Notes under the pieces: model-generated
The model's input: only the letters and a program-made list of their open reading frames with translations
What the model was told of the DNA's origin: nothing
Database searches by the model: none
Made by a program: the position numbers and the translations under genes
In this document: piece by piece, positions 536 to 15,300 of the stretch
Position numbering within the stretch: position 1 is the first letter of the stretch
Layout of the letters: each line of letters starts with the position of its first letter
Source: a bacterium
Lineage (GTDB): Bacteria; SAR324; XYD2-FULL-50-16
NCBI GenBank assembly: GCA_032250835.1
Contig: JAVVEA010000023.1
Span: 1 to 41,974 of the forward strand
Direction of reading: 5' to 3'
DNA: 41,974 nucleotides

Positions 536-940
536 TTAGTTCAGCTGAAGGTCCGGGAAAAGCTTATTGAGTACTTTGGTGAGGTTGGCTTTTAAGACCG
601 GCTTGACTAAATATTCTTGGCAACCGGCGTCAAAGGCCCGTTTGATCTGCTCGCGGTCGTCTAAAGCGGTGATGATCACCACCTTGGCTTTTTGTTCCCC
701 TTCGAGCTTGCCTTGCCCTTCTATCTTGCGGATTTCCTGTAGGCATTCGATCCCGTCCATTTCCGGCATCATCAAGTCCAACAGGATCAAGTCGTAGGGC
801 TCGCCCTTTTCGTGGGCCGTCTTAAACTGGGAAAGGGCGAAGAGCCCGTTTTCCGCTAAGTCGCAGCTTGCTGTTTTCTTTAAAAAGTGAAACAGAGCCA
901 GCCGGTTTTCGATGATGTCGTCTACGATCAGTACCTTCAC
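536..940 (-). CDS. Single-domain response regulator (CheY-like REC)
   Basis: KVLIVDD, LILLDLMMPEMDG (phospho-Asp), IITA and YLVKP motifs; no output domain; GTG start with GAGG upstream. Confidence 0.9.
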   Translation of the reverse strand: MKVLIVDDIIENRLALFHFLKKTASCDLAENGLFALSQFKTAHEKGEPYDLILLDLMMPEMDGIECLQEIRKIEGQGKLEGEQKAKVVIITALDDREQIKRAFDAGCQEYLVKPVLKANLTKVLNKLFPDLQLN

Positions 941-1179
941 CCAAGCCTCTAATGGAGGTGTATTACTCGCTTAAGCTTAAAGGTAAACAATTCGGTCCGC
1001 CTTGACTAGGGATAATTGAAACTAGACGCACCACCGTTCGACTGGTGGGCTTAGGTGGACTTAACTTAACCTGAATTAACGGCCTAAACCTTACGCGGCC
1101 CCGCCTTTGCACTTACTTTAGAACAAAGGGCCGCTCCGGTGGGGGGTGCCTAGAATAATATTTTCAATAAATCAATAAG

Positions 1180-2067
1180 ATGAAGGGAATCTTAAAGGCC
1201 CTCGCTCCTCTTTGGGGGCGGTTGATTTTGCCGGTATGTTTGGCATTGTTGCCGGGTGTCGCCCACGCACAAATGGGATTAGACTTTTTAGTGCAGGAAA
1301 GTCGTTGGACCATTGATGCGCTGTCGGAACAAAAATCGGCCTCCCAAACAGGCGCTTATCTATACTTTCCGCTTGGCCCTTGGGCCTATTTGGAAGCCTC
1401 GCACGACGAAACGACCATTGAGTTCAAAACTGCCGACCCCTTCAAGAGAGGCGACAACGCCGGCGTCTTGAGCCTGCTCTTGGGGCCGATGACGCTATAC
1501 GGTGGGCAGCATCAGGTGGCCACCGAAACCTCGTCAATTCAAGGCGGGAAGTCTTCGGTAGTGGGAGCTGAATTATTTGATATCTTACATCTGACCTTGC
1601 GCTACGAAAGTTACCGGACTAGCTATCCTGATTTTCCATTGAGCGATCAGGCCGGGATAACGGGCCTAGAATTGAGCCAGTCATCACCGATGATTGGGGT
1701 TGCGTTGTTTGAGGGGCTGTTGGATTTGGAGGTCCAGCGCGACGTTAGCCAAACCAACGATAGCCTAGGCCTGGGTCAAACCGAGTTTGTCAGCACCCGC
1801 CAAGCTTTACGCCTGACCTTTTATCCTTGGCGATTTTATGCCTCTAAGTGGAGCGGGGAACGCCTCTTTTTTGCCTCTTCAAAGGGCTTGTATCTGAACA
1901 GTATGGACCTTTTATATAAGGGTGGAAACCAAGGCTCCTTTACCTATTACGGCTTCGACTGGGTACATATTGGCTACACCCGCACGGTCGAGACCTTTTT
2001 GGAAGCTCCCCAGGGTGATCCTTTGACCGCCCATATCGATACCCTCAGTCTGACCCTCCGTTTTTAG
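1180..2067 (+). CDS. Exported protein, probable outer-membrane beta-barrel
   Basis: Signal peptide ending AHA-Q, alternating amphipathic aromatic-rich strands, C-terminal beta-signal LSLTLRF. Confidence 0.65.
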   Translation: MKGILKALAPLWGRLILPVCLALLPGVAHAQMGLDFLVQESRWTIDALSEQKSASQTGAYLYFPLGPWAYLEASHDETTIEFKTADPFKRGDNAGVLSLLLGPMTLYGGQHQVATETSSIQGGKSSVVGAELFDILHLTLRYESYRTSYPDFPLSDQAGITGLELSQSSPMIGVALFEGLLDLEVQRDVSQTNDSLGLGQTEFVSTRQALRLTFYPWRFYASKWSGERLFFASSKGLYLNSMDLLYKGGNQGSFTYYGFDWVHIGYTRTVETFLEAPQGDPLTAHIDTLSLTLRF

Positions 2068-2177
2068 GCCCCGCCGAAAAATGTCCGGTTGCTTAAGGTT
2101 TTAACTATCGGATAATAAACAGCAATAAAAGTTTCCTCCCTCCTGGCGACCGGGCCTTGTCTGAAGGCTTCTGGTGA

Positions 2178-3056
2178 ATGTCCCATTTTTGGGCTGGGGC
2201 CTCTCCTAATGGGGCGATAGTCTGGTTTCGAACCCCTTCGAATCGCCAGATGCCCCCCAAGGACCCACCCAAATCGGACCCGTCGCTCGCTAGCCTGAGT
2301 CTACCCGATTTTGCTTTGATGGCTGAATGGGCGGCAATGTGCAGTTCTAGGGCAGAAATGATGCGGCTCATCTCCCATTTACAACCCCCTTTGGGCTTCG
2401 AAGGCTGGCAAATCTCCTGGGTATTGTCGAACAAACAAGGCGAGGAGGAGCTACTGCAAGTTTCGCAATTACCCCAAGGGTGGAGCGAACGCCAACGAAG
2501 CCTGGACTTTTTTGTTATCGATGACTATTTGACCCAGCAATTAAAACGCCCAAGAGCCTGGGGCGTACAAGTCTGGGAAAACCGGAACTTTGTTAAGGAA
2601 CCTTTGCTGCGCCCGAAGCCTAAGAAAAATGAGGGGCCCGGCGAGGAGGAGTCAGCTTTTAATGCCGAAGAGTTGCAGAGTCTGCGCCGGGGATTTAGCT
2701 GCGGTCTGATGGGCGCTCTGGAGCAATCGATGCTCTTTTGGGCTTACGGAGCCCGTTTGGATTTGGGCGGCGGGGCCCGGCGTATACTGCAACAAGCAAC
2801 CCCGATTTTGTACGTCGCCGCCGAACGGCTTTGGGCGGCGCAGCGGAAAAATTATCTGCCCTATGGGCAGTATAGGGTCTTAGAGTTACAGTCTTTGGGG
2901 TTGAGCAAACAAGAGGTAGCCGAAGATATGGGGATCTCCCCCAGCACGGTCAGCTACCATTTGACCCGCGCCTACGATACTTTAGACGCCCACAACACAA
3001 ACAACGCCATCTATAAAGCCTCCAGATTGGGGTTGTTCAATGACACGGACAGCTAG
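2178..3056 (+). CDS. LuxR-family regulator with autoinducer-binding-like N domain and LuxR HTH (start could be 2250 or 2319)
   Basis: C-terminal VLELQSLGLSKQEVAEDMGISPSTVSYHL is a LuxR HTH. N-terminal LPQGW...VIDD...QVW...RRGFS follows the PxxW/DP/W/G pattern of AHL-binding domains with substitutions. Confidence 0.8.
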   Translation: MSHFWAGASPNGAIVWFRTPSNRQMPPKDPPKSDPSLASLSLPDFALMAEWAAMCSSRAEMMRLISHLQPPLGFEGWQISWVLSNKQGEEELLQVSQLPQGWSERQRSLDFFVIDDYLTQQLKRPRAWGVQVWENRNFVKEPLLRPKPKKNEGPGEEESAFNAEELQSLRRGFSCGLMGALEQSMLFWAYGARLDLGGGARRILQQATPILYVAAERLWAAQRKNYLPYGQYRVLELQSLGLSKQEVAEDMGISPSTVSYHLTRAYDTLDAHNTNNAIYKASRLGLFNDTDS

Positions 3057-3253: not shown

Positions 3254-3311
3254 AGGGCCTACTATCTGTCACTCTATTTTTAGGCCACTACCACTCTAAG
3301 GGTTCGTCTCT

Positions 3312-3551: not shown

Positions 3552-3660
3552 AATCCGCTACTGGGGCCTTGAGCTGTAAAGGACTGGGACCTAGCCTAGT
3601 TGGTCCCGATACCCCCCCCTGAAAAGAAAGCGCCCCTCGGCTCCCAACCTTTCCTTAGAA

Positions 3661-6600
3661 TCAATAAGGCGCAGCATGGGGGAGGTTGAAGGCTTTATCA
3701 AAGGTCTCGATCACCGCCTGTTTGTTTTGTATGTTCTTCTGGTCAAACTGGGCCATCTTCTGCATCAAGTCCAACAGCGCCTGCTGCTGGCCTAGGGTCA
3801 GAAGCATTTTGAGTTCTTCCGCTAAGCGCCCAATGTTTTTGTTTAGTTGGGACCCCGCCGAAAGGAAGCGGGTCAGGTCTTTTAAAATCAACGTAAAGGT
3901 CTCATCCTCGCTGCCCCAGCGAGATTGCCAAGCAGCGTCTAGATATTCGGTGCAAACTCGGTATTCCTTACTGCTGACTTCGCCATCTATGGCCGCCACC
4001 AAAGCGCCGCAAAAAATCGTTTTCTTGAGGTTTTCCAGGTTGTCATAGCGGACCGCTTGACCCGGTTCATGAGGCGGCAACAGCCGCTCTAAGAAGGCCA
4101 AACGCAGTTCCCGGTTGAGGTCTTGTTCCTTGCGGGCTTGGTTAGTCAGGGGATGGTGTGTCTCAAAACTGTTGTGGTTGACCCAGACCCAAAGCTTGAC
4201 GTTTTCCGGCTGGATGTCGTGCTCGGAAAAAAAAGTCTCTAGTTCTTGATGCAAGGACTTGTCGGCGTAAAATTCCTTATAGTTTTGGTGGTAATACTTG
4301 GCCTTGGCGTGGAACTTAGGCACCGAACGTTCCTCGACCATCAAACTGCCCAAATTGTTGCGGAATAAAAGACTCAACCCACCAAAGTGCAAAAGGTTGA
4401 CGAACAAAAAGACCTCAGTAATCTGCAATTTCTCTTGCAAACAGGCCCGGTAATCAACCTTTTGTTGCGGGAAGAAGGCTTGGATTTGGCGCATCAATTG
4501 TTCGATCTGGCCGGGCTGAACATAGGCTAGGTCGTTGTCCATCTCATCGCCCAAGTCCATATGGGTGCCCACCAGCTCTAAGGAGGTGAAACTTTCCTTG
4601 AGCGTTCCCTTGTTGACCACGCCGTAATAGCCGTTGGCGATACAATGGGCCAAGCCTTTTAAGAAACTACTATGGTCGATCAGGTCCGTTTCTTCGGGCA
4701 GGTGAGACAGGAGGTCTTTCTCGCCGCCGAAGCCCCTGACGGTATGTTTTTGGAAGGCTTTAAAAAACCAACCCCGGCCCTTTTCAAACCCCGCCAAGAC
4801 CCGGCCTCTAGGTACTTTAAGGTGCTGTAAGATGGTTGGTTGGATGACGTTTTCTTGGGGCTCGAAGTTCTTTTTGTAATAGTGGTACCAGATCAAAAAT
4901 TCCTGGTTCAATTCCCGTTCGTCTTGGATACCCAAGTCGTCTAGACGCTTGGCGATACGGTTGATGCAGCGCTTAAAAATGCGCCGCATGGCCTGCTCAA
5001 ACTGGGTCACTTCGCGGATGTCGCCGATGCTGATGTTATCTAATTCCCTTCGCTGCGAGCTACCTTGAGGGAAAGCGAGGTCTAAGAAACGGTGCAAAAC
5101 TTTTTGCCGGTGGGTCTCGGGCTTGCTTAGGCCGAAGACATCGGAAATCCGCACATGCAGCGCAAAGGCCAGGTCGAGGATATGGCTGATCTCTATCTGC
5201 TCCGCCTCATTTACGTCAGGAATCTGTTTTTCTAGGTAAGCGATTTTGAGGGCTTTGTACCTGACCCACCAGGGGTCATAAGCAAGGTGGGGGAAGTCTT
5301 TTTCTAGCTCTAACATGTTCTTAGGCAAAAAGACTTCTTTAAAGGCCCCGGTATTGATCCGGTCCACCAACTCGTCCATCCGCTCGGGGACTTTGATTAG
5401 CTGGATGATGGTGGCGCGCATGGAGGTGTGCAGCAAGGTCTCGTAGCGCATCAAGTTCATCATCGCCTTGGGCAGATTGCCGCTAGAGGCTTTAAAGGCT
5501 TCCCAATAGATCGCGCCGTTGTGGCTGCCCACGTAGTCTTGGGTCAGGTCCGGCGTGCGGCCTTGGTCACTGACTAGGTTTTTGTATTCGCCGAAGAGCG
5601 GATCTAAGAGCCCAAAACGCATATAGTCCACCAGCTTGTCGTATTGCTGGTCGTTATTGGTCCTGCGGTCGAAGAGGAAGTGGCTGGGCATGACGGGCGT
5701 AAAATAGACGCCGGGCATCAAGGTATCGTAAGTCAAAATCAATTCGTAGGCCGAGCCGGAAGACTCCTTGGATTCCAAGGTGCTGCGGAAATTCCCTTGC
5801 TTCATGTCTTCGTCAGACATGGGGAACAGCCAGATTTCCGCACTGGGGTAGCGGCTGGCGACATAGGCCTGGATGCGATCGATTTTTAGGCGCAGGGCCG
5901 CTTCGGCTTCAGCGTTGGCCTTTTTGTTGTTCAGGCGGTTGGCGGTGTTGTAAAGCTTGATCGTTTCGTTGATCAATTGGGTGCGCAGCTTCGGGACGGG
6001 GCTCTGGCTCAGGCGGGTGATCAGGTCCACCTCTTTACTGATGAACTGGGCATAAAGCAGCGGGTAGGCCTGCTGGAGCCGACGGCGAGCCAATTGCTGG
6101 ATCTTTCCCGCCATGTTGGGGTTTCTGGTCAGCTGTTCATTGCTGATTTTATTTTGTTTTTGGACTTTCCTGGCAATGAATTTAAGGGTTAGGCCCAACA
6201 GCGACTTTAAGTTTTCTTCATTGAGGCTGCTAATCTCTACCAAGAACGGCTCGATCCGGTAGAGGACTTGTAAGTCCAGGTCTGAGGCTAGTGCCTTGTG
6301 CCCGATGGTGCCGATCGAACCAATCGAGAAGATCCCCATGATAGGGTTATGCCCACCGCTGCCCGGCAGGCTGCGGACCTCGAAGGTGGAACCTAAATGC
6401 TCCATCAACTCGGACTTCATGGGCTCGCCCATCGCGTCTAGTCCCGCAACCCCGGCGGGGGCACCCGGGACATAGAGGTCCGCGACCTTTTCGACTTCCT
6501 TTTCTTTGTAATCGATCACTTCTTTGGTGCTATAGCGCACCTCTGAAAGTGAGGGATCGTTGATGTGTAACAGGTAGATGATGTCGAACAACGCCTGCTT

Positions 6601-6843
6601 CATGGGCGCGTCAAAAGACGAAAGGGCTAGCTCTAACCGGTTTTGGTTGTAGGCTGCAAAGCGCTTCGCGCCCTGTTCGGCGCTGCTGAGTAGCTGCTCG
6701 CGGAGTTTTTCGGGAAGGTCGAGAGGAGGCGCAAATAGGCTCGAAAGACTGGCTGCTTTGGGTGCAGCCGCCTTTTTGGTCTTACCCTGGGCCGCCGGGG
6801 TAGGAGCCTTTTTTTTGGAAAAAATACCTTTGAGCGCCATCAA
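3661..6843 (-). CDS. cyaA: Class I adenylate cyclase-like nucleotidyltransferase with C-terminal TerB-like domain
   Basis: GIFSIGSIGTIGHKALASDLD resembles the class I AC pol-beta motif (E. coli GSTSSVGQ..SDLD); ESSGSA, PKAMMNL and DPW blocks follow in the expected order. The C-terminus ALVAAIDGEVSSKE...LLDLMQKMAQFD fits TerB. Confidence 0.75.
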   Translation of the reverse strand: MMALKGIFSKKKAPTPAAQGKTKKAAAPKAASLSSLFAPPLDLPEKLREQLLSSAEQGAKRFAAYNQNRLELALSSFDAPMKQALFDIIYLLHINDPSLSEVRYSTKEVIDYKEKEVEKVADLYVPGAPAGVAGLDAMGEPMKSELMEHLGSTFEVRSLPGSGGHNPIMGIFSIGSIGTIGHKALASDLDLQVLYRIEPFLVEISSLNEENLKSLLGLTLKFIARKVQKQNKISNEQLTRNPNMAGKIQQLARRRLQQAYPLLYAQFISKEVDLITRLSQSPVPKLRTQLINETIKLYNTANRLNNKKANAEAEAALRLKIDRIQAYVASRYPSAEIWLFPMSDEDMKQGNFRSTLESKESSGSAYELILTYDTLMPGVYFTPVMPSHFLFDRRTNNDQQYDKLVDYMRFGLLDPLFGEYKNLVSDQGRTPDLTQDYVGSHNGAIYWEAFKASSGNLPKAMMNLMRYETLLHTSMRATIIQLIKVPERMDELVDRINTGAFKEVFLPKNMLELEKDFPHLAYDPWWVRYKALKIAYLEKQIPDVNEAEQIEISHILDLAFALHVRISDVFGLSKPETHRQKVLHRFLDLAFPQGSSQRRELDNISIGDIREVTQFEQAMRRIFKRCINRIAKRLDDLGIQDERELNQEFLIWYHYYKKNFEPQENVIQPTILQHLKVPRGRVLAGFEKGRGWFFKAFQKHTVRGFGGEKDLLSHLPEETDLIDHSSFLKGLAHCIANGYYGVVNKGTLKESFTSLELVGTHMDLGDEMDNDLAYVQPGQIEQLMRQIQAFFPQQKVDYRACLQEKLQITEVFLFVNLLHFGGLSLLFRNNLGSLMVEERSVPKFHAKAKYYHQNYKEFYADKSLHQELETFFSEHDIQPENVKLWVWVNHNSFETHHPLTNQARKEQDLNRELRLAFLERLLPPHEPGQAVRYDNLENLKKTIFCGALVAAIDGEVSSKEYRVCTEYLDAAWQSRWGSEDETFTLILKDLTRFLSAGSQLNKNIGRLAEELKMLLTLGQQQALLDLMQKMAQFDQKNIQNKQAVIETFDKAFNLPHAAPY

Positions 6844-6915
6844 ACCATCCCGAAGTTAAGTCTTGGGCGAAGATAGCACTACCCGGACCTTAGATCAATC
6901 GCCAACCACCCTGAA

Positions 6916-9900
6916 CTACCGGTCTCGCGGGCCTACCATCACAAATGCGGACCAAAAGTAGGGGTGGGACCATTGTTCTTGAGCCAAAAGTGCTAACTTG
7001 GCGTCGCGTAAGGACTGACGAGCGTTTTCTCCCTTGCGCAGGTTGCCGTAAAAATCGGTCATCAAGTTTTGGGTGCCTTCGTCGGATACGGGCCAGAGCG
7101 AGTTGACCACGGAGCTAACCCCTGACTCTTGGAAACTGCGGCGTAAGCCGTAAACCCCTTCGCCTGCTTGGATTTCCCCTACCCCGGTTTCGCAGGCCGA
7201 GAGCACCACCAGTTCGGTGCCATACAGTTCTAACGAAAGAACCTCTTGGGCGGTCAAGACCCCGTCATTGTCGCCATCGATGAGCCCCAAGAAAGACGCA
7301 TTGGCGTTGACTCCAGCAAAGGCCAGTCCCGCTCGAAAGAGGGGGTTATCGCCCGGAGGTGGGGTGGACAGGTTGCCGCCCCGTTGCATTGAAGTCAGGC
7401 GCTTCTTGAGCCGCTCTTCAGGCTTTAAGAAAAAGCCGTGGGTAGCGATGTGCAGATAGCGGGGGGCGGGCCCCTGTAGCCGGTGTAGCACTTGTTCTTC
7501 GGCTGCTTTTTTGATGAACATCTCCGTCTTGCGGGGGTACATCTTTTCAATCAATTGCCCTTCGGCCTCGGCACCGTCCAAGGGATCAAAACTCAAAGAG
7601 CGCAAGCCCTTGGCTGAAACGGCCAAGGCGCTACGTCTGCCACTGTGGGCTTGGGGAACATCGGTCAGGTTTTCGACAAAATAATCCGGCCCGGCCATGA
7701 TCATCAACTCTTGGCTCGGAGGGGCGGGCGATTCTAAGACCAAGTCCCGCGCCGAACTGAGGATGCGGATTCCCTGGCTCTCAATCAGGAATTTTCCGTC
7801 CTCGTCGATCATCGCATCATAGGGCAGTAGATACAGCGCATCTTCGGGCACCACATACAGAGCAGGTTTGTTGGCTACATATTGCTTCAGCGGGCTGTAA
7901 ATGGCTGCGTAGGCATCGGTCGCCGCCAGCTCCATATCTTCTCTGGCGGCATATTCGTCTTGGATCATCTCACGCAAGAAGTTGACCGCCGCCCGGAGCT
8001 TGTCAACCGGCCCCAGGTCCACCATTCGGGCGGTCGGACGCCAGCAGGTGAAGAAGCCGATGCAGTTACTTTTTTCCTTGGATACCACCAAAGCCATCAT
8101 GCGAGGCTCGTCTTGGTCCTCATAATAGACGTAGTCGATCAGCGCTTCGTCGGCATTCAGGCTGTTGAGCAGTTGGTCGGCGCTGACCTGCACCTGCTTG
8201 CGGGCAAAGGGCGCACTCTTGGCGCCTAGCTCGCGTTCCAGCTCGTTGATGTCGTTAACTAGCTTGCCCATAGAGAGCTTGAAAGCCGCCGGGTCTTGCC
8301 CTTCGGAACCGGCCAGGGTCTTTTTGGCTAAGCGGCGCTTTTTTGCTTGAAGCTTGAGGGCGATTTGGCGCAGTTCTGGCTGGTCGGTCATGCTTTGCAC
8401 TTTGGTGATCGCCGAACTGATCTTTAACAGCAAACCCTTGCGGTCCAAGCTGGCCTGAAGCGCGAGCAAGGCGTGTTCCTGGCTGGGGTGCGCGGCCAAA
8501 AGACGGTAGAGGTTGTAAAGTTCCTGCTTGTGTAGCTCGATGTAGCCGGCACGGGTGTTTTCGCCTGCCGCCCAGAGAACCCGGTTATAAAACTCGTTGC
8601 GGCGCTTAAAGACCTCTTGCAGAGTGGCAATGGCCCCTTGGGGGTCCTTTTGGGCCTCTTGGATTTTAGCCTTAAGGTTCAGCGCTTCAAAGGTGTAAGG
8701 GTGCGCATCGCCCAAGGTCAGGGCGGCTGAATCCAAAGCTTTGTTGACCAATTCCATGGCCCCATCGCGGTCGCCTCGTTGCAGCTTCAAGGAAGCATAG
8801 TCGATACGGCTACGGACCGCATCGGGGTGGTTTAGGCCCAAAACCTTTTCTCGGTCCCGTAAGGCGGCAATAAAGAGAGGTTCGGCAAGGTCTAATTGGT
8901 CTTGGTAAGCGTAGACGCGGGCCAAGTTGTTTTTGGCTTTCAAAGTCCTTTGATGCTCCTCGCCCAGCGTTTCTTTCCAAATCCCATAAACCCGCTCGAA
9001 GCGTTCCTGGGCTTTGGGGTATTCGCCGGTCACCAGGTAGAGGTAACCTAGGTTGTTGCTGATCGCTAAGCTGGTCGGGTGGTCATTGCCCAGATTGCTA
9101 GAAGCCGCGCTGAGTGCCGCCGAATAGGTTTGTAGGGCTTTGGGGAAGACCCCCTGACTTTCGTAAAGCATCCCTAAGTTGTTGCGCAGGCTGTAATAGG
9201 TGGGGTGGTTTTTGCCCAGCACCTTCTTAGCCATGTTGGAGGCTTCGATATAAAGGGGTTCTGCCTCTTCAAAAAGGCCTTGGTTTTCGGTCAGTAGCGC
9301 TAAGTTGTTGATGATCGCTAAGACCTCGGGGTTTTCTCGGCCCCAAAGGCCTTCGGCCAACTTAAGAGCCTCTTGGTAATGTTGGCGTGAGTCGTTCCAA
9401 TCGCCCATCAGGCGCTCGACCCCAGCCAAGTTATTGAGGTCGATCAGGTATTGTGGGCTGGTTTCGCCATATAGCTGGCCGTTGACGGACAAAATCTGCG
9501 TGAACAGTTCTTTTGATTCAGGGTAACGACCTAGGTCCTGTAAGAGCTGGGCGCGGTAGGGAACAAACTGCCAGTAGGTGGGGTCTGCTTCCGAGGTGAG
9601 GGCGCGGATCTGGCCCAGCGCTTGGTCCAATTCGCTTTCGGCGGCGCTTAAATCACCCGCTTTGCGGTGGGCTTCGCCCAACTCAGCCAGGGTGATCCAG
9701 GGCGTGACCACCTGATCCCCCAAAATGCGCTTTTCGTCATCCACCAACGGGAGATAGGTTTTGATGGCTAGCTCATATTTGCCCATCGCGGTGTAGACCT
9801 GACCCAGCCGCTCTCGGGCCAGTAAATACTCGGGGTCTTCTAGTTTGTCTTGGTGGCGTTTGAGGGCCGCTTGCAGCGCCTCTTCGGCTTCTTTGTGTTT

Positions 9901-10389
9901 GCCCTGAGCCAAGAGCATCTGGCTTTGTAGGCTCATAGCCGCTAAAGAAGGTGCCGCCACTTTGGTGGTGTATTCTGAAAGCAGTCGTTCAGCTAACTCA
10001 TAACGCCCGGCAACGCCGTGGATTTGGGCGAGTAAAAAAATAGTCTGGCCATATTCATCGGGCCGTTCGACTGCCTGGGGAGCCAGCTTTTGGTTTAGGT
10101 CCTGCAATAAAGACAAGGCAGGATCAGGGTTGCCTAAATTGACCAGCATTTCGGCAAAAGACAGTTCTGCCTGAAGGGTTAGGTCCGCCTGGGGGCCGAG
10201 CTCCTGCAAGGCTGCGTTGAATCCGCTTTGGGCTTGGCCCAGGGCTTCTTCATATTGGCCCGCTTGGTAGGACTGCTGGGCGGCGAGTAGGGTCTGGATG
10301 ATCTCCTTTTCACTGGCTTGGGTGGGCTGGGAGAGTAAGATGAAGAACCCCAAAAACCCGATTAGCGCCCCAAATACCTTGTTTCCCAT
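6916..10389 (-). CDS. Exported TPR-repeat CHAT (caspase-like) protease
   Basis: Start reassigned to 10389 (GGAGGAG RBS; MGNKVFGALIGFLGFFILLSQPTQA signal peptide). Many 42-aa kinesin-light-chain-type TPRs (NNLA..Y...G.Y..A). CHAT dyad IATHGFF and LSACETG; C-terminal HPYFWSAFVMVG. Confidence 0.9.
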   Translation of the reverse strand: MGNKVFGALIGFLGFFILLSQPTQASEKEIIQTLLAAQQSYQAGQYEEALGQAQSGFNAALQELGPQADLTLQAELSFAEMLVNLGNPDPALSLLQDLNQKLAPQAVERPDEYGQTIFLLAQIHGVAGRYELAERLLSEYTTKVAAPSLAAMSLQSQMLLAQGKHKEAEEALQAALKRHQDKLEDPEYLLARERLGQVYTAMGKYELAIKTYLPLVDDEKRILGDQVVTPWITLAELGEAHRKAGDLSAAESELDQALGQIRALTSEADPTYWQFVPYRAQLLQDLGRYPESKELFTQILSVNGQLYGETSPQYLIDLNNLAGVERLMGDWNDSRQHYQEALKLAEGLWGRENPEVLAIINNLALLTENQGLFEEAEPLYIEASNMAKKVLGKNHPTYYSLRNNLGMLYESQGVFPKALQTYSAALSAASSNLGNDHPTSLAISNNLGYLYLVTGEYPKAQERFERVYGIWKETLGEEHQRTLKAKNNLARVYAYQDQLDLAEPLFIAALRDREKVLGLNHPDAVRSRIDYASLKLQRGDRDGAMELVNKALDSAALTLGDAHPYTFEALNLKAKIQEAQKDPQGAIATLQEVFKRRNEFYNRVLWAAGENTRAGYIELHKQELYNLYRLLAAHPSQEHALLALQASLDRKGLLLKISSAITKVQSMTDQPELRQIALKLQAKKRRLAKKTLAGSEGQDPAAFKLSMGKLVNDINELERELGAKSAPFARKQVQVSADQLLNSLNADEALIDYVYYEDQDEPRMMALVVSKEKSNCIGFFTCWRPTARMVDLGPVDKLRAAVNFLREMIQDEYAAREDMELAATDAYAAIYSPLKQYVANKPALYVVPEDALYLLPYDAMIDEDGKFLIESQGIRILSSARDLVLESPAPPSQELMIMAGPDYFVENLTDVPQAHSGRRSALAVSAKGLRSLSFDPLDGAEAEGQLIEKMYPRKTEMFIKKAAEEQVLHRLQGPAPRYLHIATHGFFLKPEERLKKRLTSMQRGGNLSTPPPGDNPLFRAGLAFAGVNANASFLGLIDGDNDGVLTAQEVLSLELYGTELVVLSACETGVGEIQAGEGVYGLRRSFQESGVSSVVNSLWPVSDEGTQNLMTDFYGNLRKGENARQSLRDAKLALLAQEQWSHPYFWSAFVMVGPRDR

Positions 10390-10523
10390 TCGATCTCCTC
10401 CATTTGGCCTGAGCCTATTGGCAGTTAAAATTTTCTTCCTTCTAATATAAACGATTTGCATTCCCTTGACACCCCAAAAAAGGGTCATACCAGTCTGGTG
10501 GCGTCAGTAGCCTTTTAAATGGG

Positions 10524-11237
10524 TCAGCGGGTAAGGGGGCGCAAGTTTTCGTGGCGGACTTCGGGCAAGTTTTCGTGGCGCACTTCGGCTGGCTGAAGGG
10601 GCGGTAAACCCTCGACCAACTGGCCGGACTCTTTGCTTAATAGGTCCAACTTGGCGGCGGGGTTTAAGCTGCGGGGCGGGTCTGGAGGGCTCATGCGGTT
10701 GACTTGAGTCCAGCGGCCAGCCTTAAGTCGGCGCAGTTCTTCAGGGTAAGCAAGATTGGATACCTCAGCGCGGCCTTGAAACAAACTGACCCGCACCGAG
10801 CCTTCCTCGGATTCTACTACCAGTTCGGCCTTTTGGACGGTAACTAGCGTAGTCAAGCAGGTTAAGGTTAATTGTCCCTGGGTTCGGTCGACCCGGATCC
10901 TGGCTTTTCCTTTGGGTAGGCGGAGGCGGCGTCTTGTGCCTGTGGGGTCGGGGCCTGAAAGGTCGAGGTGGGTTTTAGAAAAGAGCATGATTTCTTCACC
11001 GGCGGCAATGAAGCTGACCCGGGCGCGGCTAGCGGCACCGGTAATGATGCGGTCCCCTTCTTGTAAACGTAGGCTTTGGCCGTTTTTATAGAGCAAGTGG
11101 GGTTGCTCACCGCGCAATAGCTGAACGCTGCCTTCTTCTAGCAGCAACAGGCCCACCGGCTGCGCCGCCCAGAGCATCGGGGAGCCACCGATAAGGACCA
11201 GCAAAAAACCAACCAGCCGAGGGATCATCAGGTTCAC
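10524..11237 (-). CDS. Exported FecR-domain protein
   Basis: Signal peptide; LQEGDRIITGAASRARV and VRVSLFQGRAEVS...LKAG are FecR-type strands; ATGA overlap with the upstream gene. Confidence 0.75.
   Translation of the reverse strand: MNLMIPRLVGFLLVLIGGSPMLWAAQPVGLLLLEEGSVQLLRGEQPHLLYKNGQSLRLQEGDRIITGAASRARVSFIAAGEEIMLFSKTHLDLSGPDPTGTRRRLRLPKGKARIRVDRTQGQLTLTCLTTLVTVQKAELVVESEEGSVRVSLFQGRAEVSNLAYPEELRRLKAGRWTQVNRMSPPDPPRSLNPAAKLDLLSKESGQLVEGLPPLQPAEVRHENLPEVRHENLRPLTR
10541..10588. repeat. 24-bp in-frame tandem duplication (EVRHENLP/EVRHENLR)
   Basis: GCAAGTTTTCGTGGCG(G/C)ACTTCGG at 10541-10564 and 10565-10588, 23/24 identical. Confidence 0.95.
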
Positions 11238-11824
11238 GCGTCCAAGCGGCGGGCGATGACCTTGAGGTCATGATTGAGCAACACACTCAAACTGACCTGG
11301 ACCAGCCGCAAAGTGGCCGTACGGCTTGAATCGCAATTTTTGCAATTGCCCGTAAAGTCCACAAAGAGCTTGTCGCCCTCTAAGGAAACTAGCTGAATCC
11401 CGCCGCCATCGGCGTCCAAATGAGGCCGTAAGCGTTCGTCTAAGACCCGCTCGATCTCTGCCAGCCAATCTTCGCGGGGTAGCCGGGCCAGCAAAATGGA
11501 GTCTTTCGATTGTTCCAGTTGCCGGCTGAGTTCTTGATAGCCGCCAAAATAGGCCCCTAAGTTATTAAACCCCTGGGCGGCCAATAGGTCTATACTTTCA
11601 CTTAATCCCTGGTTCTCGGCATTGGAATAAAAGAGATAACGCCGCCCAGGCGAAAAGAACAGTGCCTCTTCGGGCAGCAGCGTCCAGGGGATCGAGCGGG
11701 CCGCCGCTAGGTGCCCTTGGGCAAAGTCGCGAGGATCGCGGAGGTCGATCACCATCGGCGGGGGGTTGTGTTGCCGCTGTTGCAAAAAGGTTGCGGCATC
11801 CAAAAGGTAAGGTCGTTGGTTCAT
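11234..11824 (-). CDS. Rhodanese-like plus NifU C-terminal (Nfu) domain fusion
   Basis: VIDLRDPRDFAQGHLAAARSIP and GGYQ (rhodanese); ERVLDERLRPHLDADGGGIQLV...GNCKNCDSS (NifU-C with CxxC). Confidence 0.85.
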   Translation of the reverse strand: MNQRPYLLDAATFLQQRQHNPPPMVIDLRDPRDFAQGHLAAARSIPWTLLPEEALFFSPGRRYLFYSNAENQGLSESIDLLAAQGFNNLGAYFGGYQELSRQLEQSKDSILLARLPREDWLAEIERVLDERLRPHLDADGGGIQLVSLEGDKLFVDFTGNCKNCDSSRTATLRLVQVSLSVLLNHDLKVIARRLDA

Positions 11825-11890
11825 GTCACCATCTGGCAGAGCGTTGTCCGCTCAGTATAGCCGCTTGGGCCCAAAAGCCAAAGCCCAAAA

Positions 11891-12307
11891 TCACCCGAAG
11901 CAGCGAGCCGGGCAGTTGCCACATTCTTCGGGGCTGGTAGGGCGTTGGCTGAAGTTCAGTTGGTCTCCTTCCTGGTTCAGTCGTTGGACCAGATAAAAAA
12001 GTTTGCTCGAGTTTGGGGCGGTGCTCCACAGCAAATCCCACTCGCTCAGTAATCCGCTACTGCTGGCGAGGGCTTCACAACCCCCCAGAAGAAGCTCGTG
12101 GCAAGGGCCGTCTAGAGAGGCCAAACAGAGCTGTAGGTGGTTTTGTATATGGGGTCTCTCTAACATCTCGCCAATGCAGCTGAAGAAGTTTTCGATCAGT
12201 TGTTGGCCCGTTTCGCCCGACAGTTTGCCGCTGATGCGAACGAGCCCGCCGCCATAGGCTAGAATGCCTCCGCCTAGTTGCAATTCTCGGACAATGTCTT
12301 CGGACAT
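11891..12307 (-). CDS. Hypothetical protein with C-terminal CxxCxxxC; possibly distant SiaC/STAS-like fold
   Basis: Starts 6 nt after the stop of the giant kinase; ends ECGNCPARCFG; the LVRISGK...ENFF...DLLW pattern loosely recalls DUF1987. Confidence 0.55.
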   Translation of the reverse strand: MSEDIVRELQLGGGILAYGGGLVRISGKLSGETGQQLIENFFSCIGEMLERPHIQNHLQLCLASLDGPCHELLLGGCEALASSSGLLSEWDLLWSTAPNSSKLFYLVQRLNQEGDQLNFSQRPTSPEECGNCPARCFG

Positions 12308-12313
12308 GGGGGC

Positions 12314-15300
12314 CTAATCTTTTCTTAAAAAGGTTTCTAAGTTACGTAGCTTCTGGCTCAATTCTTCAAATAATTCTGGGGCCTCGGGCGGGCAGTGTTG
12401 CAAGACATAAAAGGCGGTCTGCAAGACGTCACGCCAGCGGGGGTTAGCCGGGAATTTGGAAAGTTTTAAATACCGATCCAAAGTGCGGGTGCGGTAGGTT
12501 CCATTTTTATCGACCGTTGAGTTCCAAATCGCTGATTCTTCGGCAAACTCTACTTTGCCTTTACTGGTCGTTTGGCTCCAGTAACGCAGCGATAGGTTCA
12601 TGATCTCCACCATCGCCTCGCGTTTGGACTGAACGCTGGGTAAGTCGGCATCGTCCAAGCGCGGCGGCAGGTTGCGCACCTCACGAAGCATACTGGCCCC
12701 ATCGTGGCCCAGCAAGGTACTTAAACCGCCCAAATGGGCCAATTCGCCGCTGCTTTTGCCGGGCGGGCGCAGGGAAACCAGCCAGCCTTGTTCTTCTGCG
12801 AGGGGTTCAAAAGACAAGGCCCAAGGGGGTTCGCTTGGGTTTAAGGTTAGTTGCTGTGGGGCTTGCGGGTCTTTTAAAGCCCGCTCTAGCTGCTGCATCA
12901 GTTGGGGGGCCGATGGATCTTCCATCAGCGTCTCGGCGCGGCGGTTGGCTAGGGTAAGGCGGAATTTTTGGTCCAGCGCGAATACAGGGCTTTCGGTTTG
13001 GTCAAAGAACCGTAACAACCCACGCTGACGGGCTTGTAGCTGCCGTTCTACTTGCCGGCGGCGCTCTACTTCAGCATGCAGTCGGCGGTTTTGCCGTTTG
13101 CGTTCTAAGGACCGACTGACCTCGATTTGTGCCTCAACGCGGGCTAACATTTCAGCTGCTTGGACTGGTTTGATCAGGTAATCGTTGGCCCCGGCGTTAA
13201 AGCCTTCTAAAATATCGTCCCCCCCTGCCCTGGCGGTCAATAAAATAACCGGTAACTCTTCGCGCCCCTTGAATTGGCGTAACTGGCGGCAGACTTCGAA
13301 CCCACTAACTTCAGGCAGCATCAGGTCCAGCAAGATGAGGTCAATCTTTGGCTCTAATTCAATGATCTCAAGAGCCTCCCTCCCATCGATGGCGCTCAAG
13401 CAATCGTAGCCTGACCGCACTAGGTATTGGCTTAAGGTGCGCTGTAAGATCAAGTCGTCTTCAACCACCAAAACCAACCCACGGGCGTCACTGCGGCGTG
13501 GTGCTTCGGTCGGTTCCGGGGCGATTTGGGCGCTGACGATTCGGGCTAGGGGTTGGGCTTTGCCTTGGTGGACCGGTAAGTTGAAGCGGAACAGGCTCCC
13601 CTCTGCGGGCTTGGACTCCACTTCCAACTGGCCTTTATGGAGCCGGACCAACTGGCTGGTTAGGGCCAAGCCCAACCCGGTACCTTCGCTATCAGGACGA
13701 CCTTGGCCGCGCTCGAACAACTCAAACAGGTTGTGCATCTGGTCTGGTTCGATGCCGATTCCCTGGTCGGCGACTTCCACTATAATTTGGTCGCCTTGCC
13801 GCTCGGCGCGGATCTCTACCTTGCCTTTGGGGGTGAATTTGATGGCGTTACCTACGAGGTTATACAAAATCTGTTGTAGGCGGTTTTCATCGGCGGCGAC
13901 GGCTTCTAGCTGGGCGGGCACCAAGTTGACCAACTCGACCGGTCGTTTGCCCGCTAAAGGCCGGCATAGGGTCAAGATATTTTCGGCTAAGCTGGGCAGA
14001 TGGATCGGGGCGAGCTGCAATTTTAAGCGGCGTTCCTTAAGCAACGAGAAATCAAGGATGTCATTGATCAGCCCCGTGAGCCGCTTACCTGATTGGATGA
14101 TTAATTGGAGGCGTTCTTGGTCGTCGCCCTTGGCTCCGCCTTGGGCCATCATTTCGGCCATGCCGATGATTCCCGCTAGGGGCGTGCGTAACTCATGGGA
14201 CGTATTGGCCAAAAATTCGTCCTTGAGGCGGTCCATGTCTTTGAGTTGTTCTACTAACTCCTGCTGCCTGCGGTATAACCGGGCATTTTCCCAGGAAATC
14301 TTGGCCTGCCCTAAAAGGACCCGCAACTGCTCCATCTGGGTCGCCCCGAAGGCCGCTTCGATCCGGTTGTTTTCCAAATACAATACGCCGGTCACTTCGT
14401 CGCCACTGGTGAACGGGGCAGCCAGCAACGAATGGACCTGATGGTTTTGGACATAGTGGTCGATGATGAAAGGGCCTCGGTTCAGGGCATCGTCTAAAAC
14501 CACATCTTCACCGGTGTGCAAAACATACCGCAAAACCGCCGCAGAATAACTCTGGTCTTCGGAAATCAGTTGACCGCCCACAGAGCAAAGGTCCGCCGCT
14601 AGTCGGGGCTGCCCATTTTCGATAAAAAATAACAGACCCTTTTCGGCCCCCGCTTGTTCCATGATGATCTGCAACATGGCGGGCATCAAACGCTCGGGGT
14701 CGATCTCCTTGGCGATGGTGGTCAACGCGGATAACAGGCCTCCTCGCGGGTTTTCTTCAGGGGCCGATTTTTCCGGTGCGGGAGGTAGCTGGTGGTCCGG
14801 GAAATATTTGGCGAACTGGTGGCGTACTTCTCGGATTTTTACTTCTGCGCCCCAGTTTCGGGCGGCATCTAACAGCGCGAAATAGAGCCCGCGGGCTTTG
14901 CGGGGTTTGTTTTGCTTCCAGGACAGGTGGGCGTAGGCCTCGACCAACAACATTTCATAAAACAACCGCCCCGAACGCGATAAGGACTCTTCTAGGGCTT
15001 CTAAGGGCCCAACTTCCGAGGATGCTTTGAGGCTTTTGGTTAACTCTAATTGGCGCGAGATTTCGCCAAAGTTAAGCGGGAATTGTTGGGCCAGCGCCTG
15101 GAGCTGGCTCTGCCCTTCGCTTTGGCCCAATTGGCCCTGCAAAAAAGCCATAAGGGCGATATAAGGCGGCTCAACCAGTGCCGGTTGGTTTTGCTGGGCG
15201 TGATATAAGGCTTTGACGGCCCGCTCGGGCTGCTCGACTAAAAAGTGAGTCAGTGCTTCAAACAGGGGGCCCCGGAAGGGGTCGTCGCTGCGTTCGTTGG

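What the first reader, a model, noticed from the sequence alone, without database searches (positions are those of the whole stretch)
3661..6843. Class I adenylate cyclase with a large helical insertion and a TerB-like C-terminal domain
Seen: the GS..SDLD nucleotidyltransferase motif is followed by a ~130-aa basic helical insertion before the EIWLF strand. The last ~120 aa (about 3670-4040) carry AAIDGEVSSKE and a second half-motif (MAQFD..NIQNK). Established: class I ACs are best known from Gammaproteobacteria and lack TerB; TerB is a metal-binding helical domain found in stress and defence contexts. Inference: a stress/metal-gated cyclase; the product need not be cAMP given the divergence.
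Basis: partly seen in the sequence, partly recalled or inferred. Interest (0 to 1): 0.7.

Follow-up and report, generated by a model that had tools for sequence, protein, structure and literature searches.

The report
SAR324 class-I-like cyclase with TerB tail
This gene encodes a large enzyme whose catalytic core resembles that of the E. coli cAMP-making cyclase, from a family found only in the uncultured SAR324 phylum, and in a small branch it has gained a TerB-type helical tail and always sits behind a TPR-CHAT protease gene.

Summary
ORF 3661-6843 (minus strand, likely ATG at 6840, 1059 aa) has the G-S...S-D-L-D nucleotidyltransferase motif. A 135-aa basic helical insertion follows, then the E336 strand, and the protein ends in a 131-aa six-helix tail.

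The N domain passes Pfam Adenyl_cycl_N (52 bits, cut-off 27). The protein is not a canonical class I cyclase. PF01295 is absent, and profile comparison with enterobacterial CyaA aligns only CyaA 12-138.

It belongs to a family seen only in the SAR324 phylum, mostly annotated 'hypothetical', with 1-4 copies per genome. The basic insertion is a family hallmark, positively charged in 117 of 120 members.

One paralogous clade has a cNMP-binding histidine kinase gene directly upstream in 12 of 13 loci. This is the best evidence here that the family makes a cyclic nucleotide.

The tail is a divergent TerB domain, supported by transitive profile homology and by the two top fold matches. It was captured from a lineage-specific stand-alone protein. 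All 7 fused tails replace the second acidic motif residue with Lys or Arg, so metal gating is doubtful.

All five tail-bearing loci with context lie behind a TPR-CHAT protease gene in a conserved signalling cluster.

I rate it a new variant of a known kind, of moderate interest.

The parts
3661..6843 (-). Whole ORF: SAR324-type class-I-like nucleotide cyclase with TerB tail (1060 codons from TTG; probable start ATG at 6840, 1059 aa)
6748..6843 (-). Residues 1-32: Lys-rich (net +8), predicted disordered N-terminus
   Evidence: (pLDDT <50 at residues 1-24)
6256..6747 (-). Residues 33-196: N-terminal helices and first strands of the Pol-beta-type NTase sheet; Pfam Adenyl_cycl_N match 127-196; aligns to E. 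coli CyaA 12-138
6274..6321 (-). Catalytic motif G175-S176 ... S187-D188-L-D190 (equivalent to CyaA G102-S103, S113, D114, D116)
   Evidence: 118 of 118 ungapped rows
5851..6255 (-). Residues 197-331: basic helical insertion (135 aa, net +12, pI 10.3); about 113 aa more than CyaA has at this point
5704..5850 (-). Residues 332-380: strand with invariant E336 (third carboxylate candidate) and invariant loop K359-E360-S-S-G363-S-A-Y; matches class I model NF006981 positions 141-205
4924..5544 (-). Residues 434-640: helical domain that resembles HEPN / KNTase-C type bundles which accompany NTases
   Evidence: 7ae2_A Z 6.0, 3o10_A Z 5.7, 8jbc_A Z 6.9, 2pbe_A Z 5.5; all middling
4057..4863 (-). Residues 661-929: conserved alpha/beta C-terminal core region of unknown fold (weak actin-like ATPase-type matches only)
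3664..4056 (-). Residues 930-1060: six-helix divergent TerB-type tail; first half-motif D953...E960 kept, second half D1034...K1041 (Lys in place of Glu)
6916..10488 (-). Upstream gene, 72 bp away on the same strand: TPR-CHAT protease (1190 aa), His1017/Cys1099 invariant in 5 orthologues; directly upstream of every tail-bearing cyclase with known context
10524..18331 (-). Rest of the conserved same-strand cluster: FecR-domain protein (10524-11237), rhodanese-NifU protein (11234-11824), small unknown (11891-12307), 2005-aa Ser/Thr-kinase/AAA/GAF/HisKA/HATPase/receiver protein (12314-18331)
536..3056 (.). Conserved genes on the other side: LuxR-type HTH protein (2178-3056 +), unknown 295-aa protein (1180-2067 +), CheY-like receiver (536-940 -)

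Best explanation
The gene encodes a soluble multidomain signalling enzyme of the Pol-beta nucleotidyltransferase fold. Its catalytic core descends from the same stock as the class I (CyaA-type) adenylate cyclases. Two Asp residues (D188, D190) and E336 would hold the catalytic metals, and S176/S187 would sit at the nucleotide (inferred from conservation and from the CyaA equivalents). The most likely reaction is cyclisation of ATP, or another NTP, to a 3',5'-cyclic nucleotide read by CAP-type cNMP-binding domains. The protein belongs to a family found only in the SAR324 phylum, with 1-4 paralogues per genome. All members carry a basic helical subdomain inserted right after the D-x-D strand, an HEPN-like helical domain, and an alpha/beta C-terminal region; these probably regulate the enzyme (inferred). 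In one small clade a lineage-specific stand-alone TerB-type six-helix protein was fused to the C-terminus. That tail has lost the second acidic motif residue, so it most likely acts as a regulatory or docking module and not as a classical metal sensor. It may tie the cyclase to the co-conserved upstream TPR-CHAT protease and the surrounding kinase/receiver/LuxR cluster. Shown here: domain architecture, family distribution, residue conservation, gene neighbourhoods, TerB homology. Inferred: the product, the role of the insertion, the tail's partner.
For: Class-I-type core: PF12633 at 52.4 bits (cut-off 27). NF006981 at E 1.6e-9 on residues 306-373. hhalign against an enterobacterial CyaA profile gives probability 89.9, E 1.7e-6. 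The CyaA S103/S113/D114/D116 equivalents are invariant. NTase fold: the whole-model VIA search is topped by ANT(3'')(9) 7uy4_B (Z 9.5, 221 aligned, rmsd 4.8) and AAD(9) 6sxj_A (Z 8.6), followed by ANT(4'), DrrA and GlnE. Cyclic-nucleotide product: in a 13-member paralogous clade (SH-aLRT 99), 12 loci have a cNMP_binding-PAS-HisKA-HATPase gene directly upstream on the same strand, and the 13th is cut by the contig end. The genome itself holds 13 cNMP-binding matches. Family: 137 hits, all from SAR324/Lambdaproteobacteria-type MAGs; 65 of 88 phylum genomes have a match. TerB tail: the tail profile finds 69 proteins in 1.84 billion. Of the 66 scanned, 50 match Pfam TerB at E<=0.01 and 29 reach its cut-off. 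The 54-row profile hits 2h5n_A at E 2.7e-5 and 2ou3_A (TerB COG3793) at E 0.06. The tail model (pLDDT 92.9) has the same two entries as its top fold matches (Z 7.8 with 111 aligned; Z 7.5 with 110 aligned), and they are the only rows above 100 aligned residues. Foldseek gives 2h5n probability 0.99. Capture from a stand-alone gene: 33 of 37 phylum matches lie in frames of 126-208 aa and 4 are fused. CHAT link: TPR-CHAT is directly upstream in 5 of 5 distinct tail-bearing loci with context (window, L026, L027, L068, L069) and in 0 of the 29 tail-less loci examined.
Against: No enzymology exists for any member. PF01295, the large C-terminal part of class I cyclases, is absent, and homology to CyaA is detectable only over about 190 residues. 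CyaA W118 is Q or E here. The nearest solved folds are adenylyl-transferases, not cyclases; no class I cyclase structure is in the PDB copy to compare with. The cNMP-kinase neighbourhood belongs to a paralogous clade, not to this gene's clade, and is one conserved synteny, not many independent events. For this protein alone TerB is below Pfam's cut-off (18.5 against 24.4 bits), and the fold Z scores are middling for helical bundles (note). The CHAT association rests on five fairly related genomes (cyclase identity 53-58%) and could be inherited gene order without function.
Confidence: 0.6

Rival explanations
1. It is not a cyclase but an adenylyl (nucleotidyl) transferase that modifies a protein or small molecule, as ANT, GlnE and DrrA do. 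The TPR-CHAT protease or another cluster protein could be its target.
For: The best structural neighbours are transferases: ANT(3'')(9) Z 9.5, AAD(9) Z 8.6, ANT(4') Z 7.7, DrrA Z 7.3, GlnE Z 7.1. An HEPN-like domain follows the NTase, as in MNT-HEPN pairs where the NTase AMPylates HEPN (7ae2_A, 8xdj_A rows). The class I C-terminal family PF01295 is missing.
Against: Among Pfam families only the class I cyclase N domain matches. The CyaA catalytic residues are invariant. A paralogous clade is paired with cNMP-binding kinases in 12 of 13 loci. No class I cyclase structure exists in the PDB copy, so transferases would top a fold search in any case.
Confidence: 0.2
2. One reading: the TerB tail binds a metal ion and gates the cyclase in response to metal or oxidative stress.
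For: The tail is a TerB relative. In this protein the first half-motif D953...E960 and D1034 are kept. A rhodanese-NifU gene lies in the same conserved cluster.
Against: The second acidic position is K/R in 7 of 7 fused tails but E/D in 44 of 47 stand-alone relatives. P0008 and P0041 have also lost the first-half D and E. So the putative metal ligands are not conserved in the fused lineage. No ter genes and no PADLOC defence hits lie beside it.
Confidence: 0.15
3. The pair is a conflict (anti-phage or programmed-death) module: the NTase makes a nucleotide alarm signal and the TPR-CHAT caspase-like protease is the effector. This would be analogous to CBASS or to type III CRISPR protease cascades.
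For: The TPR-CHAT gene with an intact His/Cys dyad is adjacent on the same strand in 5 of 5 tail-bearing loci. The NTase carries a basic regulatory insertion.
Against: PADLOC has no match for the cyclase. The TPR-CHAT protein shows no recognised nucleotide-sensor domain in Pfam. The cluster is conserved in gene order across five genomes together with kinases, receiver and LuxR genes, which looks like chromosomal signalling rather than a mobile defence island. The family is a multi-copy core feature of the phylum.
Confidence: 0.1

Closest known systems
Class I adenylate cyclase CyaA of Escherichia coli and other Gammaproteobacteria (Pfam PF12633 + PF01295)
   Same: Both have the Adenyl_cycl_N domain over threshold, an N-terminal helical region, and the G-S...S-D-x-D motif (CyaA S103, S113, D114, D116 correspond to S176, S187, D188, D190). 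A following E-containing strand and an E-x-x-G-S loop align to CyaA 126-183. Both are large soluble proteins with a long non-catalytic C-terminal part.
   Different: PF01295 is absent, while E. coli CyaA matches it at 228-825. About 113 extra basic helical residues sit between the D-x-D strand and the next helix. CyaA W118 is Q or E here. NCBIfam equivalog scores are far below their cut-offs. The family occurs in SAR324, not Gammaproteobacteria, with several paralogues per genome. This clade adds a TerB tail. The essentiality of the CyaA residues named is recalled from the literature, not from a call.
ANT(3'')(9)/AAD(9), kanamycin nucleotidyltransferase ANT(4'), GlnE, DrrA (NTase plus helical domain enzymes)
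   Same: These are the best fold matches over model residues 71-647 (Z 9.5 to 7.1, 216-257 residues aligned). They share the layout of an NTase sheet followed by a helical bundle.
   Different: Sequence identity is 10-13%, with no sequence-level match in the PDB. They transfer AMP to a substrate rather than cyclise it. They lack the insertion, the C-terminal core and the tail.
TerB family (PF05099); solved relatives PG1108 (2h5n) and Npun_F6341 'tellurite resistance protein of COG3793' (2ou3)
   Same: The tail is a six-helix bundle of about 125 aa with a D-x6-E half-motif, and these two entries are its top sequence-profile and fold matches. Most sequence relatives of the tail are Pfam TerB members.
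   Different: The tail itself scores below the Pfam cut-off. The second half-motif Glu is Lys or Arg in all fused tails. It is fused to a cyclase instead of standing alone or lying in a ter operon. That 2h5n is classed as TerB is recalled, and one search found no paper to check it; its hit to the TerB-like profile is.
TPR-CHAT proteases (for example Csx29 of type III-E CRISPR systems; recalled, not tested)
   Same: The neighbour has the same TPR + CHAT architecture with an intact His/Cys dyad.
   Different: No CRISPR genes or known partner genes are nearby. The relation to the cyclase is by gene order only.

Membership tests
Class I adenylate cyclase (CyaA type) | Adenyl_cycl_N domain (PF12633) at or above Pfam's gathering score | tested here: met
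   52.4 bits against 27, E 8.8e-14, residues 127-196 on profile 53-119; 6 of 7 tail-clade members match; 113 of 120 listed relatives carry it precomputed
Class I adenylate cyclase (CyaA type) | Catalytic residues equivalent to CyaA S103, S113, D114, D116, W118 (list recalled from the literature) | tested here: inconclusive
   S176, S187, D188 and D190 are present in 118 of 118 ungapped rows. The W118 equivalent is Q (86), E (31) or N (1). Four of five are kept.
Class I adenylate cyclase (CyaA type) | Adenylate_cycl domain (PF01295) after the N domain | tested here: not met
   No PF01295 at E<=1 in any of 7 clade members, and none precomputed in the 120 relatives. The control, E. coli CyaA, matches at 228-825 with E 2e-257.
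Class I adenylate cyclase (CyaA type) | NCBIfam class I adenylate cyclase equivalog score over cut-off | tested here: not met
   36.8, 23.8 and 19.3 bits against cut-offs of 802, 1035 and 1547
Class I adenylate cyclase (CyaA type) | Makes 3',5'-cAMP from ATP | not testable with these tools
   Indirect support only: cNMP-binding histidine kinase genes directly upstream of 12 of 13 members of a paralogous clade
Pol-beta-like nucleotidyltransferase fold | hG[GS]...D-x-[DE] motif plus a third carboxylate on a later strand, on an NTase alpha/beta fold | tested here: met
   Motif and invariant E336 on predicted strand 337-343. Fold matches ANT(3'')(9) Z 9.5, AAD(9) Z 8.6, and minimal NTases 2rff_A Z 6.9 and 1no5_B Z 6.7.
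TerB (PF05099) | Pfam gathering score | tested here: not met
   18.5 bits against 24.4, E 0.0026, residues 943-1057 on profile 5-111; 22.2 bits in the genome scan; 3 of 7 fused tails match at E<=1
TerB (PF05099) | Homology to accepted TerB members through intermediate sequences | tested here: met
   The tail profile finds 69 proteins (26 at E<=1e-10). Of the 66 scanned, 50 match TerB at E<=0.01 and 29 reach the cut-off. The 54-row profile hits 2h5n_A at E 2.7e-5 and 2ou3_A at E 0.06.
TerB (PF05099) | TerB-type helical bundle fold | tested here: met
   Tail model pLDDT 92.9 with six helices. Top two of 48,161 chains are 2h5n_A (Z 7.8, 111 aligned, rmsd 4.1) and 2ou3_B (Z 7.5, 110 aligned, rmsd 3.9); every other row has 97 or fewer aligned. 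Foldseek gives 2h5n probability 0.99, TM 0.52-0.55, E 0.076. The Z values are middling for helical bundles.
TerB (PF05099) | Two acidic half-motifs (D...E twice), the proposed metal ligands (role recalled) | tested here: not met
   The first half is kept in this protein (D953, E960). In the second half D1034 is kept but the Glu position is K1041. That position is K/R in 7 of 7 fused tails against E/D in 44 of 47 stand-alone relatives.
Known anti-phage signalling systems (CBASS-like, PADLOC models) | Match of the NTase or the neighbour to a defence-system model | tested here: inconclusive
   PADLOC has no family for the cyclase, only a generic TPR model for the CHAT protein and generic kinase models for the 2005-aa protein. 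The library dates from 2023.

The most novel reading that the evidence does not exclude
The SAR324 family is a separate, unstudied branch of Pol-beta-type nucleotide cyclases. Its basic helical insertion (135 aa here, about 310 aa in distant members) would be an activating ligand platform, in the way nucleic-acid-binding surfaces switch on cGAS/OAS-type NTases. The TerB-tailed version would be wired to the TPR-CHAT caspase-like protease, either as its docking partner or substrate or as the source of the signal that controls it. That would be a cyclic-nucleotide/protease circuit of a kind not yet described.
Probability: 0.12. Interest if true: 0.8.

Novelty: new variant of a known kind. Interest (0 to 1): 0.5.

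Why it matters
Class I cyclases are textbook enzymes (E. coli CyaA), yet the PDB copy held here has no sequence relative of CyaA or of this protein. They are also thought of as gammaproteobacterial.

This work shows a large, very divergent sister family that is a multi-copy core feature of SAR324, an abundant uncultured phylum. The model is of high confidence (pLDDT 92). It suggests the layout NTase + inserted basic helical subdomain + HEPN-like bundle + alpha/beta region.

The pairing of one clade with cNMP-binding histidine kinases gives a directly testable cyclase-receptor pair. The TerB fusion gives a rare case where a TerB domain, whose biochemical role is still unclear, is attached to an enzyme with a measurable output. 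The invariable TPR-CHAT neighbour offers a lead to what CHAT proteases do outside CRISPR systems.

No paper in the held library links class I cyclases with SAR324, and none mentions PF12633.

Tried and rejected
Sequence searches of the PDB found nothing meaningful. The protein alone gave no hits. The 7-row whole-length profile gave a best E of 0.94. The 7-row tail profile gave a Teb2 hit at E 0.0035 over one helix pair, judged to be chance.

Foldseek on the whole 1060-residue model gave no match at E<=0.001, so the domain-level VIA search was used instead. Several weak rows for residues about 726-924 are actin-like ATPase-type proteins: 3hrg, 3htv, 1t6c, 2j4r and 5br9, and 4apw_A (Z 5.6) and 2d0o_A (Z 5.2).

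An HMM of the family against E. coli CyaA plus 13,485 frames of the own genome placed CyaA third, but at E 0.81 and over the motif only. hhalign with a single CyaA sequence gave probability 53. The homologue search with CyaA returned only Enterobacterales at 84% identity or more, so the CyaA profile is shallow.

The ESM Atlas search on residues 640-930 gave no usable hit. The Atlas search on the LuxR neighbour did not complete twice.

Complex prediction (TPR region of the CHAT protein with the tail) was never run. The queue was full and the tool was then declared unavailable. Binding of the tail to TPR-CHAT is therefore untested.

No RNA holder was listed for the locus.

The search of earlier findings returned nothing. 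Paper searches for TerB + 2H5N and for PF12633 / Adenyl_cycl_N found nothing. One search found nothing on the CyaA catalytic residues, so those are quoted from recall.

The promoter and terminator scan of 3000-7200 was at shuffle level.

The first greedy ORF pick named the wrong upstream ORF in L044, L048 and L062 (no Pfam family). The tblastn hits pointed to kinase genes there, and the correct frames were scanned.

The careful tree search did not finish in the time allowed, so the quick IQ-TREE tree is reported. L053, L058 and L061 have long branches whose placement is unsure.

The contexts of the two most divergent tail-bearing members could not be seen. P0008 was not retrieved, and P0041 lies on a 3.1-kb contig.


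Full report
WHAT IS THERE

The finding's coordinates match one long ORF, 3661..6843 on the minus strand. It has 1060 codons from a TTG. The next codon is ATG (6840), preceded by a GGATGG stretch. The identical database protein starts at that ATG with 1059 aa (P0002).

- IFSIGSIGTIGHKALASDLDLQVLY (G175, S176, S187, D188, D190)
- AEIWLF at 335-340
- AAIDGEVSSKE at 950-960
- MAQFDQKNIQNK at 1031-1042

Residues 197-331 lie between the D-x-D strand and the EIWLF strand. They are 135 aa long with 23 Lys/Arg against 11 Asp/Glu (net +12, pI 10.3).

AlphaFold2 with a 120-row alignment gives a very confident model (mean pLDDT 92.2, pTM 0.88). Its features are:
- a disordered Lys-rich N-terminus (1-24)
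- helices 45-101
- strands 102-121, 168-174 and 189-195
- an all-helical stretch 209-331
- strand 337-343
- a helical region to about 660
- an alpha/beta region 681-888
- six final helices 936-1052

IS IT A CLASS I CYCLASE?

Evidence that part of it is:
- Pfam gives Adenyl_cycl_N (PF12633) at E 8.8e-14, 52.4 bits against a cut-off of 27, on residues 127-196 (profile 53-119).
- NCBIfam class I cyclase models match locally on both sides of the insertion. NF006978 and NF006982 cover residues 56-196. NF006981 covers residues 306-373 (model 141-205, E 1.6e-9).
- In relative P0067 the stretch after the insertion matches PF12633 positions 124-181.
- A family HMM aligns E. coli CyaA 85-121 to the motif. 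This makes S176, S187, D188 and D190 the equivalents of CyaA S103, S113, D114 and D116; CyaA W118 corresponds to Q192. That those CyaA residues are needed for catalysis is my recollection of the literature; one search found no paper to cite.
- hhalign of the family profile against a 12-row enterobacterial CyaA profile gives probability 89.9, E 1.7e-6, over CyaA 12-138 only.
- A direct local alignment puts P0001 310-370 on CyaA 126-183 (AEIWLF on VEVSFF, KESSGSAYELIL on GEDCGSTQHILL). It scores 33, reached by 26 of 1000 shuffles. This is weak alone but agrees with the HMM matches.

From these alignments the insertion adds about 113 residues where CyaA has about four.

Evidence against full membership:
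- PF01295 covers CyaA 228-825. It is not found at E<=1 in any of the 7 closest relatives.
- The precomputed Pfam lists show PF12633 alone in 113 of the 120 listed relatives and nothing in the other 7. All 120 enterobacterial CyaA proteins list five class I families.
- The NCBIfam scores are 19-37 bits against cut-offs of 802-1547.

I therefore file it as carrying the class I catalytic N domain, but not as a member of the CyaA family proper.

THE FOLD

Foldseek with the whole model found nothing. VIA-align against 48,161 chains puts NTase-plus-helical-domain enzymes on top, all over model residues 71-647:

| Chain | Enzyme | Z | Aligned |
|---|---|---|---|
| 7uy4_B | ANT(3'')(9) | 9.5 | 221 of 257 (rmsd 4.8) |
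| 6sxj_A | AAD(9) | 8.6 | 216 |
| 6nlt_A | ANT(4') | 7.7 | |
| 6yx5_B | DrrA | 7.3 | |
| 3k7d_B | GlnE | 7.1 | 257 |

Minimal NTases also match (2rff_A Z 6.9, 1no5_B Z 6.7).

Residues 434-640 match HEPN-type bundles: 7ae2_A Z 6.0, 3o10_A Z 5.7, and Csm6 8jbc_A Z 6.9. Only the first two rows of the table exceed the Z 8 level that the tool calls more than middling, so the HEPN label is tentative.

Neither this protein nor E. coli CyaA has a sequence relative in the PDB copy. A cyclase of this class was therefore not available for a fold match.

THE FAMILY

The homologue search returned 137 proteins at E<=0.001, of which the best 120 are listed. Most are 925-1000 aa and 34-59% identical. Where named they come from SAR324, Lambdaproteobacteria or 'Deltaproteobacteria' MAGs, and nearly all are called hypothetical.

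BLAST of six segments against the 121 stored proteins shows the following:

| Segment | Proteins matched (of 121) |
|---|---|
| N domain | 119 |
| Insertion | 102 |
| Core | 121 |
| Middle part | 121 |
| Tail | 8 (this protein, its twin and six others) |

Across the 120-row alignment the insertion has a median length of 134 aa (range 75-138) and a positive net charge in 117 rows. So it is a hallmark of the family and not of this gene.

In the 88 genomes held for the phylum, 65 have a match at E<=1e-20, including 17 of 18 in the window's own family-level group, with 1-4 matches per genome. Part of these are ~1300-aa distant homologues. In one of them (L072:1530-5453) the D-x-D strand (about residue 245) and the next conserved strand (about residue 565) are some 310 residues apart. 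The insertion point is thus a site that grows and shrinks.

The window's genome has a second, tail-less paralogue: C22:108444-111236, 940 aa, 39% identical. It lies behind trpB-trpA.

WHAT THE FAMILY PROBABLY MAKES

I looked at the gene directly upstream in 31 loci. In three of them my first ORF pick was wrong, and I corrected it.

In the quick maximum-likelihood tree of 40 proteins, one clade of 13 (SH-aLRT 99) stands out. It contains 12 loci whose upstream gene, on the same strand and ending at or near the cyclase start, encodes cNMP_binding-PAS-HisKA-HATPase. The 13th locus (L038) is cut by the contig end and shows only HisKA-HATPase.

Other clades have unrelated neighbours (ChaC, TrpA, adenylate kinase and others).

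A cyclase-type gene kept next to a kinase with a CAP-type cyclic-nucleotide sensor is the strongest indication available here that the family produces a cyclic nucleotide. It is one conserved synteny in a paralogous clade, not many independent events, and it does not name the base.

The genome also has 8 class III cyclase matches and 13 cNMP-binding matches. Receivers are therefore plentiful and this enzyme is not the only possible source.

THE TAIL

On its own the tail is below Pfam's TerB cut-off (18.5 against 24.4 bits).

Sequence evidence:
- A profile of the seven fused tails, run against 1.84 billion representatives, finds 69 proteins (26 at E<=1e-10). Most are stand-alone proteins of 100-145 aa.
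- Of the 66 I scanned, 50 match Pfam TerB at E<=0.01, 29 of them at or above the cut-off, and 16 do not match.
- A 54-row profile of fused and stand-alone forms hits PG1108 (2h5n_A) at E 2.7e-5 and the 'tellurite resistance protein of COG3793' 2ou3_A at E 0.06.

Structural evidence:
- The tail folded alone gives pLDDT 92.9 and six helices.
- Its two best matches among 48,161 chains are the same two entries: Z 7.8 with 111 aligned, and Z 7.5 with 110 aligned. No other row aligns more than 97 residues.
- Foldseek lists 2h5n first at probability 0.99, with E 0.076.

Sequence and fold agree, so I accept a divergent TerB-type domain.

In the phylum this subtype occurs in 16 of 88 genomes, 14 of them among the other 18 genomes of the window's family-level group. 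Thirty-three of the 37 matches lie in frames of 126-208 aa, and four are fused to the cyclase. The fusion therefore captured a lineage-specific small protein.

The own genome keeps a stand-alone copy at C11:37616-37990, which passes Pfam TerB at 31.1 bits and lies two small ORFs upstream of, and on the same strand as, a PAS-HisKA-HATPase-receiver gene.

The fused tails differ from the stand-alone forms at one telling position. The Glu of the second half-motif (consensus A-D-x6-E) is Lys or Arg in 7 of 7 fused tails, against Glu or Asp in 44 of 47 stand-alone relatives. Lys1036 is also invariant in the fused set. The two most divergent fused tails (P0008, P0041) have lost the first-half Asp and Glu as well.

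If those acidic residues are the metal ligands, as I recall is proposed for TerB, then the fused lineage is not conserving a metal site.

THE NEIGHBOURHOOD

Seventy-two bases upstream on the same strand lies a 1190-aa TPR-CHAT protein (CHAT E 3.4e-70). Its His1017 and Cys1099 are invariant among five orthologues.

The same gene precedes the cyclase in every tail-bearing locus whose context I could see. These are the window, L026, L027, and L068 and L069. L070 repeats L026. None of the 29 tail-less loci examined has it.

The wider cluster is also kept:
- a 2005-aa Ser/Thr kinase-AAA-GAF-HisKA-HATPase-receiver protein
- a small unknown protein
- a rhodanese-NifU protein
- a FecR-type or unassigned 200-250-aa protein
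- TPR-CHAT
- cyclase-TerB
- on the other side, a LuxR-type HTH protein, an unknown 295-aa protein and a CheY-like receiver (82-86% identical)

The tail-bearing proteins form one clade of seven (SH-aLRT 99). Tail and TPR-CHAT neighbour are therefore linked by a single history. The link is suggestive, not proof of a functional tie.

PADLOC gives no defence model for the cyclase, and only generic TPR and kinase hits for the neighbours.

I tried to test tail-TPR binding by complex prediction, but the tool was full and then unavailable.

VERDICT

The corrections are these:
- The protein belongs to a separate SAR324-wide family that lacks the CyaA C-terminal family.
- The insertion is a family trait.
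- The tail's acidic site is decayed.
- The context is a TPR-CHAT-headed signalling cluster rather than a stress or defence island.

The most likely function is a regulated cyclic-nucleotide synthase whose TerB tail serves as a regulatory or docking module. My confidence in the combined statement is about 0.6. I rate an NTase of class I ancestry at about 0.9, a cyclic-nucleotide product at about 0.6-0.65, TerB homology at about 0.85-0.9, and a functional tie to TPR-CHAT at about 0.4.

It is a new variant of a known kind. It is of moderate interest for cyclic-nucleotide signalling, for the unsolved structure of class I cyclases, and for the unexplained roles of TerB and CHAT domains.

Noticed in passing
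window 21541-22347 (+): A 268-aa protein matching DUF533 (E 1.1e-7) and TerB (E 2.2e-7, 31.6 bits). It is a second, unrelated TerB-superfamily gene in the same window, next to an MCP gene (19087-21348).
   Followed up: partly
window 22790-24464 (+): DUF3334/CheX-like protein (22790-23482) followed by a DUF6272 + SiaC-family regulatory phosphoprotein (23508-24464). With the MCP, this region looks like a partner-switch or chemotaxis-type signalling patch.
   Followed up: no
window 12314-18331 (-): A 2005-aa single ORF combining a Ser/Thr protein kinase, an AAA_16 ATPase, GAF, HisKA-HATPase and a receiver domain. It is conserved upstream of the cluster in L026, L068, L069 and L070.
   Followed up: partly
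own genome C22:108444-111236 (-), locus L067 6409-9231: Second, tail-less paralogue of the cyclase (940 aa, 39% identical) directly behind trpB-trpA. Its sister in the tree, L057, has the same TrpA neighbour. PF12633 scores only 25.2 bits here, below the cut-off, so Pfam-based annotation would miss it.
   Followed up: partly
L072 1530-5453 (+) and L073 1696-5598 (-): ~1300-aa distant homologues in another SAR324 family-level group. They are collinear with this protein but have about 310 residues at the insertion point. PF12633 is barely at or below the cut-off (27.7 and 21.5 bits).
   Followed up: partly
proteins P0122, P0123, P0184: The same TerB subtype is fused to other modules elsewhere. 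P0123 has TerB + transglutaminase core + KY-type Ig-like domain. P0122 has repeated TerB units. P0184 has DUF4236 + TerB.
   Followed up: no
own genome C11:34486-37990 (-), locus L071: The stand-alone relative of the tail (124 aa, TerB 31.1 bits) sits in a same-strand row with two small unknown ORFs and a PAS-HisKA-HATPase-receiver hybrid kinase.
   Followed up: partly
family C-termini (P0007, P0009-P0012, P0063, P0067): Other family members carry different C-terminal extensions of 85, 157 or 223 aa with no Pfam match. The C-terminus of this cyclase family seems to be a general attachment point for add-on modules.
   Followed up: partly
several MAGs (e.g. L036/L041/L062; L045/L049/L052; L040/L047/L063): Single genomes hold three paralogues that fall into different clades of the tree. 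This points to an old expansion of the family within the phylum.
   Followed up: partly
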